IMG/VR virus record: IMGVR_UViG_3300035034_000851
Span: 1 to 64,000 of that record
Source of the DNA: a virus
Length of the DNA: 64,000 nucleotides
Strand: one strand, 5' to 3'
Below are positions 3,601 to 64,000 of the stretch, one piece after another. Every line of letters starts with the position of its first letter. Within the stretch, counting starts at the first letter, position 1. The notes under the pieces are model-generated. The model did no database searches, was not told where the DNA came from, and was given only the letters and a program-made list of their open reading frames with translations. Both the position numbers and the translations under genes were made by a program.

Positions 3601-4942
3601 AATTTTTAATTATCAAAATAAATTATTTATAGATACAGAGGAATCTAGATTTTATTTACCTTCTACTAATCAAGCTATTCAATCTAATGAATCACAAGTG
3701 TTTATAGGAACTGGAGAATTCTTTTCTGCTTCTGTACAAGAGCTTGTAGATTCAGATGTAGGTTACATGGGTAATCAATCTCAAAGAGCTTTTAATATAA
3801 CAGAACATGGAGTTTTTTCTTTAGATGCTAGAGATGGTAAAGTATTTTTATTTAATGGTAAAACAAATGTTATATCTAATAAAGGTAAAAGAAATTTCTT
3901 TGAAAATAATTTAGAATTAAATTTAGAAACTGAATATGAAGATGTAACTGGTTTAGAATTTCCTTGCCCAGACAACCCTACTAATAATGTAGGATTTGTA
4001 GCAGGTTATGATACTAGATATGATAGATGGCTATTAACTAAACATGATTTTAAATTAACAGACAAAAGTAAAAGGATGTTAACTGAAGTACAAATATTTA
4101 ATCCAAATATACCTAGCACTGGTTCATTAAAATTTGAAAATGGTAATTGGTATATTGTAACTCCTGATTCATTTTCAACTGAAATAACTAAATTAATTTA
4201 TCCTAAAAATGAACCTACTTTATTTGAAAATTGTAGTTGGACAATTAGTTATTCAGTAAAAGATCAATCATGGACTAGTTTTCATAGTTACATTCCTAAT
4301 TATTATATAGATAGTAAAACTAAATTGTATAGTACTATTAACAATGACAATAACATATGGAAACATCATAAAAGATTTGAATACCAAACTTTTTATGGGG
4401 TACAATATCCTCATATAATTGAAGTAGTTGCTAATAAAAATCCTATAGAATCTAGTATACACAATGCTGTAAGATTTCATACTCAAGCTCAACAGTGGGA
4501 TCCAATTAATAAATATTTTATAGATAAAAGGTTAATAACTTTTGATAAAGCTAACCTATACAACAGTTATCAGTCTTCGGGTGACATAGACTTGTTAACT
4601 AAAAGGGTACAGAATCATTTAGGTAGAGACCAAGAGAGTTGGCATCAACAAGCTTTATTAGATATAAATGAAAAAGAATATAGCTTTAATGAATTTAGAG
4701 ATTTAGTTGAAAATAGGGACATACCTTTATTTACAAAAAATTGGGAAGAACCTTCTTTTCAGGACAAATACTATATTGATAAGGTGATAAATCCCACATC
4801 AATAAACTTAAACAAAAACTGGTGGGAACAAGAGGTATTCAGGGATAAGTACTTGTTAATACGACTTTTTTTCACTACCTTTGTAAATACTAAGTTAATA
4901 ACTAACTTTAATATTACAGATAAAAATTACACAGAGAGATAA
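599..4942 (+). CDS. Tail stabilization/muzzle protein (P22 gp10-like, crAss-like), 1447 aa
   Basis: N-terminal 'GLHTDFSPNRQPDGTYRFALN', 'KSYMRDEIYAFGIVY', C-terminal 'SWTISYS....WTSFHSYIP' typical of crAss stabilization proteins; size and synteny fit. Confidence 0.75.
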   Translation: MARNNRRRDSNDNERSRYSQNSRDRRDRRNTKLRKETIDSFESGLHTDFSPNRQPDGTYRFALNTISETTEGDLGFRSNELSNESVAALPEGFQVLGHTYISGEKDVIFAVNSLTNISLIGTLDKNYNFETLIESDCLDFNICNEIEATYRVKNGCDTIIYFVDHLNPDRSVNLNYLEQYIKSDYQEGTDNPLSKWNCEEFQIEKIDDNLSVSFLKYLETGNLPIGTIQLVVRHLDSNKNGAGYTIATETIPVIDDRYSETYLNIDGNIAMNSNKSIEFEINGINLNYEFLEVTAIVTTASVTSSYVVAELPITESLIRYTVTSIDDSVPTDVRSISSVKEIYSSKSITQLENRLIRSNIKCNSKNYTGLQQYANDIKSHYEVFEQDSTDVNDLAVKTGDYYWYGKSYMRDEIYAFGIVYKYNNNTFSPVMHIPGRAKDSFTGSTQGAHRPDSITGWDSTSYDLVSSSWDNVSSIPDTEAEHLSLIAGDTVERWKVYNTAYKDSSLNSNVHSAGQMAYHESNANYPNTKDCNDNFIFGDLVGTPIRHHKFPDSSLEPHSSNNNIHPIGIKFKNIILPPDTKSYRIVRCDRDENKTVLDKGISFYGRISEVGDSPIHFQPFLGNLSKLELAIGPTTGLRVIPDGLESGALIGAGDTVPIQNTISDRICFHSPLTKFVKPFIKASYLKTENVLNAAAETPYLQSNRRTSIGLSFNTDDVEINVNPSLNTSINSVINKQAYIGKNSILPAGILTEKFINNYSDDTFAIETNSNVRAYDGNTEVFTHANDTITEGSNGSGGTLRSGSQAIYQSLKVVKDVYNNLNRLIYYTVSKDWTEANETLVLGGDTFITRFNFINSGRMIAESEEWVNEDNKIADRKHNYSSLIGFFTESTINSELRHELPGELYYPKTLNAGLFLNCITDDGSGYTPNYYNYNSDFHKPNNINAFISLPNSYRYCSDCECLFPNRVLYSERSFQEELADNYLNSKTNNYRDILANKGDITKIFNYQNKLFIDTEESRFYLPSTNQAIQSNESQVFIGTGEFFSASVQELVDSDVGYMGNQSQRAFNITEHGVFSLDARDGKVFLFNGKTNVISNKGKRNFFENNLELNLETEYEDVTGLEFPCPDNPTNNVGFVAGYDTRYDRWLLTKHDFKLTDKSKRMLTEVQIFNPNIPSTGSLKFENGNWYIVTPDSFSTEITKLIYPKNEPTLFENCSWTISYSVKDQSWTSFHSYIPNYYIDSKTKLYSTINNDNNIWKHHKRFEYQTFYGVQYPHIIEVVANKNPIESSIHNAVRFHTQAQQWDPINKYFIDKRLITFDKANLYNSYQSSGDIDLLTKRVQNHLGRDQESWHQQALLDINEKEYSFNEFRDLVENRDIPLFTKNWEEPSFQDKYYIDKVINPTSINLNKNWWEQEVFRDKYLLIRLFFTTFVNTKLITNFNITDKNYTER
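4852..4883 (+). promoter_or_regulatory. Bacteroidota-type sigma70 promoter (-33 CTTG, -7 TACCTTTG) upstream of the cargo genes
   Basis: CTTG 4852-4855, 20-nt spacer, TAnnTTTG 4876-4883, about 60 nt before ATG 4945. Confidence 0.5.
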
Positions 4943-32575: not shown

Positions 32576-33100
32576 TTAAATTTTTAATATTTTTTCTATT
32601 TTTACAGAATTTTTATCTGTAGAATTTCCAACACTATAGAAATTTAATGTACCATTTTCTTTATTTTTCCAATCTAATAAAGGATAATGAGATAAAACTA
32701 CATTAGGTTTGTCATTAAATTCTATAAAATACATATCAAAAGTTTCATTAAATAAATCTTTAGCTTCTACAGAAAAATCAGTAACATGTTTAGTTAATCC
32801 AAGTCTTTTATCTTCAATAATAACTTTACTAAAAACACTACTTTTATATGTCCAATAATAGTTAAGTAAAATCATATTTTCTCTAATTACTATATCATTA
32901 TTTCCAAATAAAAAATATATATTATTACAATTAATATCTTCTCTAACTTTTCCTATTTTTCTTAATTCCATTTCCCAATTACCCATAAAAAATAAAACAT
33001 CATTTTCTTTATATAATTGATTTAATTCTTTAATAGTAAGTTCTATATTTTGTTTAAAATCAAAAAATCCTATGTTATAATTATTTTCATTAAACTTCAT
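32576..33100 (-). CDS. Degenerate metallophosphoesterase (pseudoenzyme paralog of 30789-31487)
   Basis: Aligns by eye: 'INCNNIYFLFGNND' vs 'IKCNNIHLILGNHD'; 'VVLSHYPLLDWKNKENG' vs 'IVLNHYAMRVWNKSHHG'; DxH, GD and GHxH lost. Confidence 0.7.
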   Translation of the reverse strand: MKFNENNYNIGFFDFKQNIELTIKELNQLYKENDVLFFMGNWEMELRKIGKVREDINCNNIYFLFGNNDIVIRENMILLNYYWTYKSSVFSKVIIEDKRLGLTKHVTDFSVEAKDLFNETFDMYFIEFNDKPNVVLSHYPLLDWKNKENGTLNFYSVGNSTDKNSVKIEKILKI

Positions 33101-34403
33101 CTTCTTTAAAATTTATAAAATATTTTTGTTTTTTTCTTATTGAAGATATTAAATTATAAGTGTTATTTAGATATTTATAAAATATAGGAGAATTATCACC
33201 ATTTTCTATTCTTAATACTAACCCTTTAGTTAAAGATTTTTTATCTAAATTTGACTTTTTTTCTGACAAATTTGACAATATTTTATCTAAAGTAAGAACT
33301 GTTCCATAATTAACTAATTTTATATCTTTATACACTTGTTCATTTTCAAAATTAGTTTTAAAATAAGACAAACCTATTTCAGGGACATGACTTACATTTA
33401 ATTTAGAACATCTTTTTTTAACTTGGCTCCATGATAAATCAATAACTTTTCCATTTTCTAAAGTATTTGTTATTCTATGTATAAATACATCATAAGTACC
33501 AGGTTTGTAACTATAAGTAAAAGGTATGTTATCTCCATAACAATTTTTTAAAGTAGATACAGCTCCTGAACCTAATATATGTTTAAACAAAGATACGTTA
33601 AAATTAGGTACAAAACTATTTTTTTCATTTTTAAAACCAACAGCAGTGTAATATATAGTTTCTCCTTTGTTTAATTTGTATTTAAATAATTTAGATGCAT
33701 CATAGGAAGTTCCAAATTTAGAACTAAACATTAAAAATTTATTACCATAAACAAATTTGTAATCTCGTATTTTATTAGAAAATAAAGTTTTAAGTTTATT
33801 TATAAAATTATCTTTTTGATCAACTTTTAAAAAACCACATCTTCCTGAATATCCTTCAAGCATTTCTGTTATTACAACAGGATTACTATTTGCCAATCCT
33901 TTAAAATCTGAAAACATTGGCTTAATTATAATATCTCTTTTAAATTGTTTATTTAATTTAGTTAAAGGATTATCAAGAGTTGTTTTAAAACTTTCATCTA
34001 TTCCTATTGTAATTGTTATATAATTAAAAGAAAAACCTTTAGTATTATTATTTAAACAACTAATATTTTTTAATAAAATGTAATTTTCTAAAACATTAAA
34101 AGGTAAAAACAAAGCTGAAGTTAATACACCTCGTATTAATTTAGGTTTTACTACGCCAGATTTAGACATAATACCATGTTTCATAATATTTTTATTTAAA
34201 GTATTATCTTTAAATAAGTTTAGTTCTTTTAAAAGCAATGGGTCTAATATAGTTCCTGTAGGAAATAATAACCCTCTAGTATATAATTGAATTTCATTTG
34301 AAACAACAACTACATCATTATTAATTCTAGATACTTTAATATATTTAGAATCAACAATTTCTTTTAAATTAGTTATTTGTACTACTGTAAATTGTCCTAC
34401 CAT
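33090..34403 (-). CDS. RNA ligase-like protein (Rnl2/DRB0094-type with N-terminal OB-like domain), catalytic residues substituted
   Basis: 'GLLFPTG', 'KLIRGVLTSALFLP', 'ITEMLEGYSGR' (motif I K->M), 'KGETIYYTAVG', 'HRIT', 'HVPE', 'KGLVLR', 'FYKYL'. Confidence 0.72.
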   Translation of the reverse strand: MVGQFTVVQITNLKEIVDSKYIKVSRINNDVVVVSNEIQLYTRGLLFPTGTILDPLLLKELNLFKDNTLNKNIMKHGIMSKSGVVKPKLIRGVLTSALFLPFNVLENYILLKNISCLNNNTKGFSFNYITITIGIDESFKTTLDNPLTKLNKQFKRDIIIKPMFSDFKGLANSNPVVITEMLEGYSGRCGFLKVDQKDNFINKLKTLFSNKIRDYKFVYGNKFLMFSSKFGTSYDASKLFKYKLNKGETIYYTAVGFKNEKNSFVPNFNVSLFKHILGSGAVSTLKNCYGDNIPFTYSYKPGTYDVFIHRITNTLENGKVIDLSWSQVKKRCSKLNVSHVPEIGLSYFKTNFENEQVYKDIKLVNYGTVLTLDKILSNLSEKKSNLDKKSLTKGLVLRIENGDNSPIFYKYLNNTYNLISSIRKKQKYFINFKEDEV

Positions 34404-57812: not shown

Positions 57813-57827
57813 AATATTAAATAATAG

Positions 57828-57917
57828 CAGTCAATATAAGAATCGAACTTATTACTCAGGATTTGGGTGAACTTAATCACTTAAAGTCTAGAACTCTACC
57901 AATGAGTTTAATTGACC
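57828..57917 (-). tRNA. tRNA-like gene with 18-nt anticodon-loop insertion (Trp-CCA or Sup-TTA); may be a pseudo-tRNA
   Basis: Acceptor GGTCAAT/ATTGACT, D-arm AACTC-ATTGGTA-GAGTT, T-arm ATAAG-TTCGATT-CTTAT, discriminator G, no encoded CCA; anticodon stem CTAGA/TCCTG has two mismatches. Confidence 0.65.
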
Positions 57918-59607: not shown

Positions 59608-59899
59608 TAAACATTTTGTTTATATAGAAATTATAACCTAAATGATAATCTTCATCTATTATTAATTTCTTTTTACTTTTATTTCTTTTACAATCCTCAA
59701 ATCCTAAATTAAATTGAGTAAGTTTACTACTTATTATTAATCCTTGATATATTAAGACAAAAATAATAATTATAAAAAACATTACTAAAAATTGTAAATT
59801 CTCGTAATTTTTAACAATAAAACTTATTGTTAATATAAATGTTAATATTGATAACAATACTAAAAATATTTTTGATCTTAATTTAAAACGGTAATACAT
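59585..59899 (-). CDS. Membrane protein (2 TM)
   Basis: Two long hydrophobic segments. Confidence 0.55.
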   Translation of the reverse strand: MYYRFKLRSKIFLVLLSILTFILTISFIVKNYENLQFLVMFFIIIIFVLIYQGLIISSKLTQFNLGFEDCKRNKSKKKLIIDEDYHLGYNFYINKMFNEQNRKK

Positions 59900-60212
59900 T
59901 TTCTACTTCTTTTAAACATTTTACTGCACACATTCCTTTAAAAACGTCCATTCTTAGAGTATTTATCTCTTCCAATTGAATATTAATTTCTCTATTATTT
60001 GTACAAAAATAAAAACCTCTTATAGGTTTCTGGTTTTTAACTGATTTTTCTACATAATCATCATGATCAATTATAAAATCATCTATCCCATTATTTTCAA
60101 ACAAATCATTTACTTCTTTTAAATATTCACCTTCTTTTCCTTCTATTTTACTATACATAGCGAACACACATGGAATCGAACCATAATCTTTTTTAAAAAA
60201 TGCTTTTACCAT
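59883..60212 (-). CDS. Hypothetical protein
   Basis: In-operon ORF. Confidence 0.55.
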   Translation of the reverse strand: MVKAFFKKDYGSIPCVFAMYSKIEGKEGEYLKEVNDLFENNGIDDFIIDHDDYVEKSVKNQKPIRGFYFCTNNREINIQLEEINTLRMDVFKGMCAVKCLKEVENVLPF

Positions 60213-60317
60213 TAAGCTATGTGTGTTCTTGAGAATTAGGTTCTCACGGCTTTGATCCTACCTTAAAAAGGTGCTCCAAATCTTGAGTAATACTCAAAAT
60301 TAATAATCTTTACTATT

Positions 60318-62657: not shown

Positions 62658-63290
62658 TTATAAATTTTCTTTAATCCAATTGTTTATATTAGTAATTAAA
62701 AACTTTTTTTTAGTTCCATTTGTATTTGGATTTCCATTTCCAACAACATATTGAACACTTTTTGTTTTTAGTCTAAAATCATTAAATCCTTTTTTAAGAA
62801 AGATTTCAACTTCACTTTTACTATACATTTTTTCTTTAATCAAGTGTATTATTACTTCATTGTTAGGTGTTAATTTTAATCTCCAATCAGGTTTATCTAA
62901 TCCTGTAGGGTTATCATCATCGTAGTCACACCAATCAAGATATTCTAAGTTAACCTCATTAATACCGCCTTGTCTAGAATATTCTTCTACAAATGATTGT
63001 GGTATTTGGTTTACTCCAATAAGCTTCTTATCTGTTGTTGCTACAATTTTTCTACTACCATCAGAGTTTTTGGGTGTATTTGTGTCGCGAAGGTGAGCCT
63101 TAAATTTTTGTATAGAGTTTGTCACACTCCAATAGTACCAATCCTCATCTTTAATCTCTTCATCTGATGTGAAATAGAGATGACAAGCTTTACTGTCTCC
63201 ATAAGGATATAACAATAAACTAGGACCGTATCTATGAATAGCTCCGCTCTTTGCAGGTAACATTATTACCTGTACTGTTTCTAATTGCAT
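62658..63290 (-). CDS. Hypothetical phage protein
   Basis: 'HLYFTSDEEIK..DW', 'KIVATTD', 'IPQSFVEEY' recurrent phage motif. Confidence 0.65.
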   Translation of the reverse strand: MQLETVQVIMLPAKSGAIHRYGPSLLLYPYGDSKACHLYFTSDEEIKDEDWYYWSVTNSIQKFKAHLRDTNTPKNSDGSRKIVATTDKKLIGVNQIPQSFVEEYSRQGGINEVNLEYLDWCDYDDDNPTGLDKPDWRLKLTPNNEVIIHLIKEKMYSKSEVEIFLKKGFNDFRLKTKSVQYVVGNGNPNTNGTKKKFLITNINNWIKENL

Positions 63291-63464: not shown

Positions 63465-63480
63465 AATTTTTAATTTTTTT

Positions 63481-64000
63481 AAAAGCAGGATTATACTCTC
63501 CTGCTAGGAGTTTTACTGTATTCTCAGTGATGTATTAGCACCATCTATATTTCTATAAATGGTCACAAGATAATTAGTACATGACTCGGATTACTTAATT
63601 CATCCTCCATTCTGTCTATCTCTTGTTGTAAACTCCTAAGTGTATTCTAACTACTTCTCAATGTTTTATTATAGTGTTAAATCTATTCAAACATACTATT
63701 GTTTCATCTAAGTAACGTCATTTAACAGATTAGTTACTATATCTCTATCCAACATATTACCATACAGTTGGTACACTTGATAAATTTGTATGTAATAACA
63801 CTAAGCTTAGACTGTAGTTTCTATTAAACCTGCTTACCTCCAGGTGCTTGTGTTATTACAATTTATATTCTATCTTTATTTAGTGACATTGACCACGGTT
63901 TTATCCATTTTCAGGACCGAGGTTAATCACAACGTCATAGGTTTAACGTATTTCTTTACCAATTTGGTTCATCATACATACACAAATTATAACCTATTTG
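63481..64000 (-). ncRNA. Candidate large structured non-coding RNA (may extend past the window edge)
   Basis: No ORF in the track over 520 nt; many nested inverted repeats, a GAAA-tetraloop hairpin and a 3' terminator-like hairpin. Confidence 0.6.

What the first reader, a model, noticed from the sequence alone, without database searches (positions are those of the whole stretch)
63481..64000. Candidate large ornate non-coding RNA (>500 nt) at the upstream end of the minus-strand gene arm
Seen, reading the - strand: (a) an 11-bp helix TGTAATAACAC (63860-63850) / GTGTTATTACA (63801-63791) encloses AAGC/GCTT, ACCTG/CAGGT and TAG-AAA-CTA, forming a multiway junction. (b) A long irregular hairpin pairs GTGATTAACCTCGGT (63930-63916) with ACCGTGGTCAATGTCAC (63899-63883). 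(c) AAGTGTA (63778-63772) / TACACTT (63644-63638) closes a domain with CCAAC/GTTGG and AGTAAC/GTTACT, whose loop AATCTGTTAAA can pair with downstream TTTGAATAGATT as a pseudoknot. (d) TAGGAGTTTAC (63638-63628) / GTAAAACTCCTA (63516-63505) closes a domain with ACAAGA/TCTTGT and ACCATTTATA-GAAA-TATAGATGGT (63563-63540). (e) The region ends in AGCAGGA/TCCTGCT-TTT. G-U pairs and the GNRA loop favour RNA on the - strand. This is the longest stretch without an ORF in an otherwise gene-dense window. Known: phages encode large ornate RNAs of unclear function (ROOL, GOLLD). Inference: this is a member of such a class or a new one; I see no group I/II intron, tmRNA or RNase P signatures.
Basis: partly seen in the sequence, partly recalled or inferred. 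Interest (0 to 1): 0.85.

Follow-up and report, generated by a model that had tools for sequence, protein, structure and literature searches.

The report
Uncatalogued phage structured RNA gene
The gene-free stretch encodes a roughly 415-base, knotted non-coding RNA from a widespread phage RNA family that is missing from the RNA catalogue, often sits beside phage tRNA and tmRNA genes, and has no known job.

Summary
The flagged stretch is real and more than chance. It is one RNA gene on the minus strand, window 63535-63949 (415 nt), between two small minus-strand ORFs of a distant crAss-like phage.

I collected 33 distinct full-length relatives (164-549 nt) from viral and marine contigs. They share conserved strands separated by variable stems. 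Core helices are 88% paired, against 29-45% when partners are slid, and 27 of 59 pairs show compensatory changes.

A pseudoknot between a hairpin loop and the central junction covaries in five forms.

A covariance model of the 3' domain matches 43 of 49 further viral loci. One is the g004-g005 junction of Cellulophaga phage phi14:2, which a preprint reports as an abundant, persistent transcript. Rfam has no match, including on 19 member loci.

tRNA or tmRNA genes abut some members within 2-7 nt. However, four near-complete phages carry the RNA with neither gene, so it does not depend on them.

Not confirmed:
- it is not at the end of the gene arm;
- the conserved RNA is under 500 nt;
- the outer closing helix and the terminator hairpin are specific to this window.

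Earlier agents of this scan found the same family on other DNA. Function is unknown.

The parts
63535..63949 (-). Whole conserved RNA (415 nt), from the P1 hairpin to the 3' tail GCUAA
   Evidence: Boundaries come from the alignment of 33 distinct members. They are supported by tRNA genes that abut members: tRNA-Met ends 2 nt before the start as I drew it in L048, and tRNA-Lys starts 3 nt after GCUAA in L052. nhmmer profiles hit 63964-63770 and 63781-63535.
63932..63949 (-). P1 hairpin (6 bp) with the conserved AAAC-containing loop
   Evidence: 3 of 6 pairs show changes on both sides. The same hairpin heads the phi14:2-like members (by eye).
63883..63930 (-).
   Evidence: 4 of 5 base pairs show changes on both sides. 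The insert alone scores z -1.9.
63779..63874 (-).
   Evidence: P3 is 98% paired and the first 4 bp of the inner helix are 94% paired, with changes on both sides. In four minimal members the inner stem is absent.
63638..63778 (-). P4 (63778-63772/63644-63638) enclosing P5 and a window-specific variable insert (63645-63748)
   Evidence: P4 is 93.5% paired but invariant in the close subfamily. It reads differently yet stays complementary in the phi14:2-like members (by eye). The insert alone scores z -0.5.
63749..63771 (-). P5 hairpin (5 bp) with a conserved 13-nt loop; loop bases 63760-63757 form the pseudoknot
   Evidence: P5 is 100% paired, with A-U in 28 and C-G in 5 at one pair. Loop-junction covariation is shown.
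63626..63637 (-). Central junction J4/7 (AGGAGUUUACAA); bases 63631-63628 pair with the P5 loop (pseudoknot, 4 bp in this window)
   Evidence: Alignment columns 313/449 read A-U 27, G-C 5, G-U 1. The junction's own complement lies upstream in 64 of 67 members, against 151 of 536 for other classes.
63564..63625 (-). P7 (63625-63617/63572-63564) with a conserved A-G mismatch and a variable insert
   Evidence: RNAalifold predicts it independently. In the wide family 5 of 9 pairs show changes on both sides and 96.8% of cells are paired.
63540..63563 (-). P8 hairpin (10 bp, GAAA loop in this window; extended in most relatives)
   Evidence: RNAalifold predicts it. It contains a mostly conserved U-G wobble (18 of 24). 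In the wide family 11 of the 14 P8 pairs show changes on both sides (three never vary).
63535..63539 (-). Conserved 3' tail GCUAA
   Evidence: Four of the five tail letters are invariant and the G nearly so in 33 of 33 members. It is part of the pattern that retrieved the wide family.
63482..63534 (-). Window-specific 3' extension: a 9-nt complement of the central junction (63516-63505 region), then a 7-bp hairpin followed by UUU
   Evidence: The complement is seen in 1 of 33 members, with 0 of 200 shuffles matching it. The hairpin scores z -2.7. The terminator scan did not call it.

Best explanation
Window 63535-63949 (minus strand) is the gene of a stable, trans-acting, pseudoknotted non-coding RNA of a crAss-like phage. 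It belongs to a wide, phage-restricted RNA family that includes the abundant g004-g005 junction transcript of Cellulophaga phage phi14:2.

Shown here:
- A conserved architecture: P1, P2, P3, then P4 stacked on P5, a pseudoknot between the P5 loop and the junction after P4, P7, P8 and the tail GCUAA. Invariant junction strands alternate with freely varying peripheral stems.
- Covariation in helices and in the pseudoknot.
- Restriction to phage DNA.
- The same strand as neighbouring genes.
- tRNA or tmRNA genes abutting either end in some members.

Inferred:
- The RNA is made early as part of a longer transcript. Only 6 nt separate it from the stop codon of the upstream ORF.
- It is released by endonucleolytic processing, by RNase P or tRNA 3' processing where a tRNA or tmRNA abuts.
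- It accumulates because its compact fold resists decay.

Most likely mode of action (my estimate about 0.3): the invariant knotted core is a binding surface for a conserved host factor of the translation or RNA-processing machinery, so the RNA acts as a scaffold or decoy during takeover. It does not act on the phage's own tRNA or tmRNA.

The confidence given below is for identity as a member of this RNA family, not for the function.
For: Fold and non-coding nature:
- Fold z is -5.1. No frame is open under any single stop reassignment.
- Rfam gives nothing.

Close subfamily:
- 33 distinct full-length members of 164-549 nt share the conserved blocks.
- Core helices are 88.2% paired against 28.6-44.8% when slid. 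27 of 59 pairs have changes on both sides, and 0 of 500 shuffles reach the observed values.
- RNAalifold finds P7 and P8 on its own.

Pseudoknot:
- One pair reads A-U 27, G-C 5, G-U 1.
- Five complementary variants occur across the family.
- The junction's own complement is present in 64 of 67 members, against 151 of 536 for other classes.

Wide family:
- Model R1 hits phi14:2 at 45.4 bits, E 4.5e-9, on the strand that the preprint reports as transcribed, abundant and persistent.
- R1 confirms 43 of 49 further viral loci, where P7/P8 are 95.3% paired with 16 of 23 pairs compensated.
- Only 4 of 39 pattern matches in 185,579 species' genomes are confirmed, all on MAG contigs.

Context and expression:
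- A tRNA lies 2 nt upstream (L048) or 3 nt downstream (L052); a tmRNA lies 7 nt downstream (L077/L105).
- A marine metatranscriptome holds 14 contigs that match the conserved blocks and carry other letters in the variable parts.
Against: - There is no transcript evidence for this phage itself. The one RNA library gives contigs only, may contain DNA, and shows relatives rather than this sequence.
- The fold energy is equally good on the plus strand.
- G-U against A-C counts in the helices do not decide the strand: 82 against 49 in A2, and 11 against 13 in A4.
- Members were retrieved with patterns taken from the conserved blocks, so conservation of those blocks is partly by construction. Alignment A4 is fitted to the model.
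- P4 does not vary within the close subfamily.
- The window has only a 4-bp pseudoknot, and it carries a 3' tail that could pair with the same junction instead.
- For the function: nothing here shows a binding partner.
- The tRNA/tmRNA link is not obligatory. Four records that are 91-98% complete have the RNA but no tRNA and no tmRNA.
Confidence: 0.85

Rival explanations
1. The RNA is a ribozyme or RNA-protein enzyme that matures neighbouring tRNA and tmRNA precursors, for example by cutting at its own ends, a phage stand-in for RNase P-like processing.
For: - tRNA or tmRNA genes abut members within 2-7 nt on the same strand. A tmRNA lies within 100 nt downstream in six distinct loci.
- 14 of 26 RNA-bearing records hold a tmRNA supported by score or by ARAGORN, and 19 of 26 hold a tRNA.
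- A compact pseudoknotted core with invariant junction bases is typical of ribozymes.
Against: - Four near-complete records have the RNA but neither tRNA nor tmRNA.
- In this window the RNA is followed by a 70-nt tail and an ORF, and the tmRNA lies 1.95 kb away.
- Spacing to the next RNA gene varies from 2 to more than 600 nt.
- There is no match to any RNase P or self-cleaving ribozyme model of Rfam.
Confidence: 0.1
2. The stretch is a row of several independent small end-paired RNAs of 70-135 nt rather than one molecule, as another first-stage note on this genome read it.
For: - Several domains are closed by their own long stems.
- In L015 a P3-like module stands alone and is followed by a terminator-like hairpin.
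Against: - The blocks occur in one fixed order and spacing in 33 of 33 full-length members.
- P4 and the pseudoknot join distant parts.
- Minimal members shrink every peripheral stem yet keep all junction strands within 164-205 nt.
- tRNA genes abut only the outer ends.
Confidence: 0.04
3. It is a cis-acting leader (5' UTR, riboswitch-like) controlling the gene that follows.
For: In many members a start codon lies 15-45 nt after GCUAA. A gene of the phi14:2 g004 family lies near the RNA on the same strand in about 15 RNA-selected loci.
Against: - The next gene differs between members: unrelated ORFs, a tRNA, a tmRNA.
- The g004-like gene lies upstream in some members and downstream in others. 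Only 8 of 51 loci chosen by that protein hold the RNA within 4 kb.
- In phi14:2 the junction RNA stays abundant while other early transcripts fall.
Confidence: 0.04
4. It acts as DNA, as a replication origin, packaging site or protein-binding array.
For: It is an inverted-repeat-rich, ORF-free stretch in the replication-gene arm, and it folds equally well on both strands.
Against: - Helices keep pairing through changes on both sides while loops and junctions stay fixed.
- A loop-to-junction pseudoknot covaries.
- A U-G wobble is kept in 18 of 24 members in P8.
- The ends abut tRNA genes.
- The phi14:2 relative is a highly abundant transcript.
- There are no iterons or tandem repeats among the conserved blocks.
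Confidence: 0.02
5. It is a degenerate or HEG-less mobile intron (group I-like).
For: - HNH endonuclease ORFs sit inside or directly before members in several loci: L020/L047, L107, L093, L110, L084.
- The size and the variable peripheral stems resemble introns.
Against: - No Rfam intron match on the window, on the two interrupted loci or on 19 member loci.
- The flanks are unrelated ORFs, tRNAs or tmRNAs, not two halves of one gene.
- The element's ends are fixed by abutting tRNAs.
Confidence: 0.02

Closest known systems
The 'long non-coding RNA' of the g004-g005 junction of Cellulophaga phage phi14:2 (Drobysheva et al., bioRxiv 10.1101/2020.03.07.982082; passages read)
   Same: - It belongs to the same family by my test. 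A covariance model built from the window's subfamily matches NC_021806 3186-3359 on the plus strand over its full length (45.4 bits, E 4.5e-9).
- By eye it has the same P1 hairpin, P4, P5 and loop-junction pseudoknot with compensated letters.
- A homolog of the neighbouring protein g004 lies next to both RNAs, and a tmRNA gene is nearby.
   Different: - Primary sequence is too far apart for nhmmer (E 1.1).
- The order of the RNA and the g004-like gene is reversed.
- The tmRNA is 0.67 kb downstream in phi14:2 and 1.95 kb upstream here.
- The preprint reports only abundance, direction and timing. It gives no structure, family or function.
ROOL and GOLLD large ornate RNAs (Nature 2025, PMC12286853; search listing and abstract only)
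   Same: They are large, intricately folded non-coding RNAs of unknown function. From my own recollection they are often phage-borne and near tRNA genes.
   Different: - There is no match to any Rfam 15 model. That ROOL and GOLLD are among those models is my recollection.
- This family is smaller (core about 165 nt, members 164-549 nt) and has a different set of conserved strands.
- Homo-oligomer formation, shown for ROOL and GOLLD, is untested here.
tmRNA (Rfam RF00023)
   Same: It is a pseudoknot-rich stable RNA of phages, on the same strand and often the immediate neighbour.
   Different: Neither ARAGORN nor Rfam calls the element a tmRNA. It has no tRNA-like domain and no tag reading frame.
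Candidate structured RNAs predicted in IMG/VR (Fremin et al. 2023, PMC10690425; passages read)
   Same: The source collection is the same and the approach is comparative. The family may be among their 8,495 unnamed IMG/VR candidates.
   Different: The text I read names no tmRNA-linked or crAss-like large RNA.

Membership tests
Unnamed phage RNA family typified by the phi14:2 g004-g005 junction RNA | 3' domain: junction, P7 with an A-G mismatch, P8, tail GGUGCUAA | tested here: met
   Model R1 was built from 24 members including the window. It matches phi14:2 at 45.4 bits, E 4.5e-9 and 43 of 49 further viral loci. The window's own 98.6 bits is by construction.
Unnamed phage RNA family typified by the phi14:2 g004-g005 junction RNA | Pseudoknot between the P5 hairpin loop and the junction after P4 | tested here: met
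   The window has 4 bp (63760-63757 with 63631-63628). Family covariation is shown. The exact 5-mer test missed the window (one of 3 misses in 67).
Unnamed phage RNA family typified by the phi14:2 g004-g005 junction RNA | 5' P1 hairpin with an AAAC loop, followed by P2/P3 and P4 stacked on P5 | tested here: met
   for the close subfamily. Equivalence in the phi14:2-like members was judged by eye only.
Unnamed phage RNA family typified by the phi14:2 g004-g005 junction RNA | Abundant, persistent transcript during infection | not testable with these tools
   Known only for phi14:2. For relatives there are only metatranscriptome contigs over the conserved blocks.
ROOL / GOLLD (Rfam models) | Match to the family covariance model | tested here: not met
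   cmscan against all 4,227 Rfam 15 families gave nothing at gathering score and nothing relevant at E up to 10. Nothing was found on 19 member loci.
Group I intron | Match to the intron model and interruption of a host gene | tested here: not met
   No Rfam match. The flanks are separate ORFs with their own stop and start codons.
tmRNA / tRNA-like | tRNA-like acceptor/T domain and a tag ORF | tested here: not met
   ARAGORN and Rfam call the tmRNA at contig 65899-66271 and nothing at 63535-63949.
RNase P RNA | Match to any RNase P model of Rfam | tested here: not met
   No match at E up to 10. Catalytic activity is not testable here.

The most novel reading that the evidence does not exclude
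The family is a new catalytic or machine-like RNA of phages. On this reading it is a compact pseudoknotted ribozyme or RNA-protein core that intervenes in host translation quality control or stable-RNA processing. That would explain why it travels with phage tRNA and tmRNA genes, is among the most abundant RNAs of infection, and is a repeated target of homing endonuclease genes. It would then be a widespread functional RNA class overlooked in phages.
Probability: 0.15. Interest if true: 0.9.

Novelty: new variant of a known kind. Interest (0 to 1): 0.68.

Why it matters
Large RNAs with conserved, knotted folds are rare, and almost every known class turned out to be a machine or a key regulator. 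This class has several features that make it worth following up:
- It is spread over many uncultured phages, including crAss-like and much larger ones.
- It has a 165-nt core with invariant junctions.
- It is missing from Rfam.
- It has a cultured member, phi14:2 on Cellulophaga baltica, in which the RNA is already known to be one of the most abundant transcripts.

Its function is therefore directly testable by genetics and pull-downs. The structure model given here, with helices, a pseudoknot and variable sites, says which mutations to make.

Tried and rejected
- **Direct DNA search.** blastn of the element against 50,697 phage records found nothing. An exact 25-mer found nothing in viral contigs. 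A first gapped pattern found only one contig because its 3' part is not conserved.
- **Single-sequence and profile nhmmer against phi14:2.** No significant hit; the link needed a covariance model.
- **Sigma-70 promoter scan.** Fewer sites than in shuffles, and it does not fit this host type. The preprint found no common motif upstream of early transcripts.
- **Column-pair mutual information over the alignment.** Dominated by subfamily signal. A possible tertiary pair between the P1 loop and the P2/P3 junction (A-U 16, U-A 5, G-G 4) stays a lead only.
- **First alignment-free pseudoknot script.** It mislocated the junction in some rows, so I redid it.
- **The g004-like protein as a partner.** No Pfam family, only a PHROG of unknown function, and nothing useful in the protein atlas (best score 0.79, TM at most 0.32). 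The reciprocal linkage is weak, 8 of 51.
- **Strand test by G-U against A-C counts.** Not decisive.
- **Sequencing runs.** DNA runs from lake and salt-lake water hold parts of the stretch, and one lake run may be its source. No raw-read RNA run was available, so ends, strand and level could not be read.
- **Literature.** Five searches found no paper that describes this family beyond the phi14:2 preprint. Supplementary tables of PMC10690425 and of the preprint could bear on this and were not visible.
- **Rows left out.**
  - From the full-length alignment: 14 members cut by contig ends or interrupted by insertions (L005, L008, L017, L020, L026, L031, L038, L040, L041, L046, L047, L052, L055, L063), plus exact duplicates.
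  - From A3: 6 of 30 distinct 3' domains, namely two very long ones and four that lack P7.
  - L018, L021 and L023 were chance matches of the pattern inside coding-like sequence.
Full report
**Where it lies.**
The window is bases 1-64000 of an 88,950-bp IMG/VR virus record. GC is about 25-30% locally. The replication genes lie on the minus strand. The DNA polymerase finds its best relatives among crAss-like phages at about 28% identity.

Beyond the window's end the minus-strand genes continue. An 81-aa ORF with a lipoprotein-like signal ends at 63956. A tmRNA gene lies at contig 65899-66271 on the minus strand. The arm turns only near 68 kb. So the flagged stretch is an internal gap of 491 nt (63465-63955) between two small minus-strand ORFs, not the head of the arm. 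Within the window it is the longest ORF-free stretch. All six frames carry all three kinds of stop codon.

The 520 nt fold at -126 kcal/mol, against -96.6 +/- 5.7 for 100 shuffles (z -5.1). The plus strand scores the same z, so folding energy says nothing about strand. Rfam 15 gives no match at gathering score, and only three chance-level hits at E 2.6-7.8.

**Relatives.**
No phage record matches by blastn. A search with the neighbouring 210-aa protein brought in a contig that shares two long, almost identical blocks with the element. In that contig the 11-bp helix reads differently but still pairs.

Patterns built from those blocks found more relatives:
- 8 and then 17 stretches in viral contigs; 3 of the 17 were chance matches in coding-like sequence;
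- 41 stretches in metagenomes, mostly marine.

After dropping duplicates and truncated or interrupted copies, 33 distinct full-length members remain, 164 to 549 nt long.

**Anatomy.**
All members show one order of conserved strands separated by stems of free length and sequence:
- a P1 hairpin with an AAAC loop;
- P2, with a conserved 5-bp base and a variable hairpin;
- a purine-rich junction;
- P3 with a conserved internal loop and a variable inner stem;
- P4 directly followed by the P5 hairpin, whose 13-nt loop is nearly invariant;
- a variable insert and the 3' strand of P4;
- the most conserved junction;
- P7 with a conserved A-G mismatch;
- P8, and the tail GCUAA.

Four minimal members of 164-171 nt and one of 205 nt keep all junction strands while almost every peripheral stem is shrunk or gone. 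This is one molecule with a core and decorations. It is not a row of separate small RNAs, which is how another first-stage note on this genome read it.

In window coordinates the RNA is 63535-63949.

**Covariation.**
On the 33-row alignment:
- the eight core helices are 88.2% paired, against 28.6-44.8% when the 3' partners are slid by 1-3 columns;
- 27 of 59 pairs have changes on both sides;
- none of 500 column shuffles reaches any of the five observed measures.

P4 is invariant in this subfamily, so it is uninformative there. The extension of the inner P3 stem aligns poorly (51% paired). RNAalifold, run without my structure, predicts P7 and P8.

**A pseudoknot, but not the one proposed.**
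The P5 loop pairs with the junction that follows P4. At one pair 27 members have A-U, 5 have G-C, and one has G-U with a shifted C. In the wider family the same two places read UGAGA/UCUCA, UGCCA/UGGCA and UGGAA/UUCCA.

An alignment-free count gives:
- the junction's own 5-mer complement within 200 nt upstream in 64 of 67 members, against 151 of 536 for the complements of other classes;
- inside a hairpin loop in 62 of 67, against 112 of 536.

The window is one of the three misses of the exact 5-mer test, because it keeps only 4 of the pairs.

That insert folds no better than shuffles (z -0.5).

**The wide family and phi14:2.**
Notes of earlier agents of this scan pointed to an abundant intergenic RNA of Cellulophaga phage phi14:2. 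I tested this myself.

A covariance model of the 3' domain was built from 24 of 30 distinct sequences. It matches NC_021806 3186-3359 on the plus strand over its full length at 45.4 bits, E 4.5e-9. This lies in the gap between g004 and the next genes. [quoted passage not shown]

A loose pattern of three invariant words found 50 stretches in viral contigs. The model confirms 43 of the 49 new loci at E up to 0.001. On that alignment (35 distinct rows, fitted to the model) P7/P8 are 95.3% paired, against 27-49% when slid, and 16 of 23 pairs are compensated. By eye these distant members also have P1, P4 (other letters, still complementary), P5 and the pseudoknot.

The same pattern in one genome of each of 185,579 prokaryote species gave 39 stretches, about what chance predicts by my estimate. 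Only 4 were confirmed, all on MAG contigs that may be phage DNA. The family is therefore essentially phage-borne.

**Context.**
Neighbouring genes and the RNA always share a strand. tRNA or tmRNA genes abut members closely:

| Neighbour | Locus | Distance |
|---|---|---|
| tRNA-Met upstream | L048 | ends 2 nt before the start as I drew it (4 nt before P1) |
| tRNA-Met upstream | L028 | 17 nt |
| tRNA-Lys downstream | L052 | starts 3 nt after GCUAA |
| tRNA downstream | L072/L095 | 28 nt |
| tmRNA downstream | L077/L105 | starts 7 nt after the model match |
| tmRNA downstream | L111, L085, L074, L110, L108 | 55-97 nt |

These abutments fix the ends of the RNA and its strand. They imply co-transcription and release by tRNA-processing enzymes, which is an inference.

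Of 26 RNA-bearing records:
- 18 have a tmRNA match at E up to 0.001;
- 12 score above Rfam's cut-off, and two more are called by ARAGORN;
- 19 have a tRNA.

However, four records that are 91-98% complete have neither. The RNA therefore does not exist to serve the phage's own tRNA or tmRNA.

In this window only 6 nt separate the upstream stop codon from P1. A dedicated promoter directly in front is therefore unlikely.

**Window-specific tail.**
After GCUAA the window has 53 more bases. They include a 9-nt exact complement of the central junction (0 of 200 shuffles; found in 1 of 33 members) and a 7-bp hairpin followed by UUU (z -2.7; not called by the terminator scan). Pairing of the tail with the junction would compete with the pseudoknot. 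Whether that is a switch or an accident cannot be told from one sequence.

**Expression.**
One marine metatranscriptome holds 14 short contigs that match the conserved blocks. At the joints they carry other letters in place of the window's variable parts. One contig matches 63617-63744 with four differences. This fits transcription of several relatives. But these are contigs in an RNA library, without strand or ends, and DNA carry-over is not excluded.

**What it does.**
Nothing here shows the function. The properties are those of RNAs that bind or act on conserved cellular machinery:
- an invariant, knotted core tolerant of any peripheral decoration;
- high and lasting abundance in phi14:2;
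- repeated company of tRNA and tmRNA genes;
- repeated invasion or flanking by HNH endonuclease genes.

I commit, at about 0.3, to a trans-acting scaffold or decoy for a host factor of translation or RNA processing. A processing ribozyme gets about 0.1. Cis-leader, DNA element, intron and separate small RNAs get a few percent each, for the reasons listed under the rivals.

**Novelty.**
My five literature searches found only the phi14:2 preprint. A catalogue of IMG/VR candidates might include the family, but its lists are in supplements I could not open. Earlier agents of this scan filed the same family from other genomes. My tests agree with them and add the pseudoknot covariation, the tRNA-defined ends, and the finding that tRNA and tmRNA are dispensable companions.

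Noticed in passing
contig 65899-66271 (minus), 1.9 kb beyond the window's end (L006:3400-3772): Phage tmRNA gene. ARAGORN gives the tag VDAQGVLQMFPTVKLEIAA; Rfam scores it 55.5 bits. It is on the same strand as the RNA studied here.
   Followed up: partly
window 57827-57917 (-) and 60161-60226 (-): ARAGORN calls a tRNA-Leu(UAA) of 91 nt at the first place. Rfam calls a second tRNA at 60161-60226 (42.4 bits) that ARAGORN does not, and it overlaps the 5' end of a 109-aa ORF (59883-60212).
   Followed up: no
L007 (NC_021806) 4031-4500: The second 'long non-coding RNA' of the phi14:2 preprint, the g005-g006 junction, coincides with a tmRNA gene called by ARAGORN (Rfam 46 bits, just under the cut-off).
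   Followed up: partly
L020:5062-6102 (-), also L047, L107, L093, L110, L084: HNH endonuclease ORFs sit inside or directly before family members. In L020 a 5' part of one RNA gene ends in a terminator-like hairpin. An HNH ORF follows, then a short-form RNA with its own P1, P5 and pseudoknot loop. This looks like a mobile HEG-plus-RNA cassette.
   Followed up: partly
L010:241-830 (-); L017:209-783 (+): Tandem copies. In L010 one copy's GCUAA tail is followed after a few bases by the next copy's P1. L017 has a second, weaker model match (33.7 bits) 225 nt after the first.
   Followed up: no
window 62658-63290 (-) and L007:2194-2904: The 210-aa protein next to the RNA is a homolog of phi14:2 g004 (PHROG 15656, no Pfam). 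It lies on the same strand near the RNA in about 15 RNA-selected loci, upstream in some and downstream in others. Only 8 of 51 loci chosen by the protein hold the RNA within 4 kb.
   Followed up: partly
L015 (minus strand, about 430 nt upstream of its full RNA copy): A stand-alone copy of the P3 module only (both conserved flanks and a variable stem), followed by a hairpin and a T run.
   Followed up: no
L070, L071, L074, L108: the 45-50 nt just before P1: A conserved small hairpin-rich unit with a 4-bp stem and an 8-nt loop directly precedes the RNA in several phi14:2-like members. It looks like a truncated tRNA. ARAGORN does not call it.
   Followed up: no
contig 64202-64510 and 65223-65573 (beyond the window): Further ORF-free gaps of 309 and 351 nt in the same early region. 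Neither my sequence profiles of this family nor the RNA model match there. I did not examine them further.
   Followed up: no
window 33090-34403 (-): A 437-aa ORF matching the phage RNA ligase family (PHROG 968, E 1e-18), in the same genome as the tmRNA and the structured RNA.
   Followed up: no
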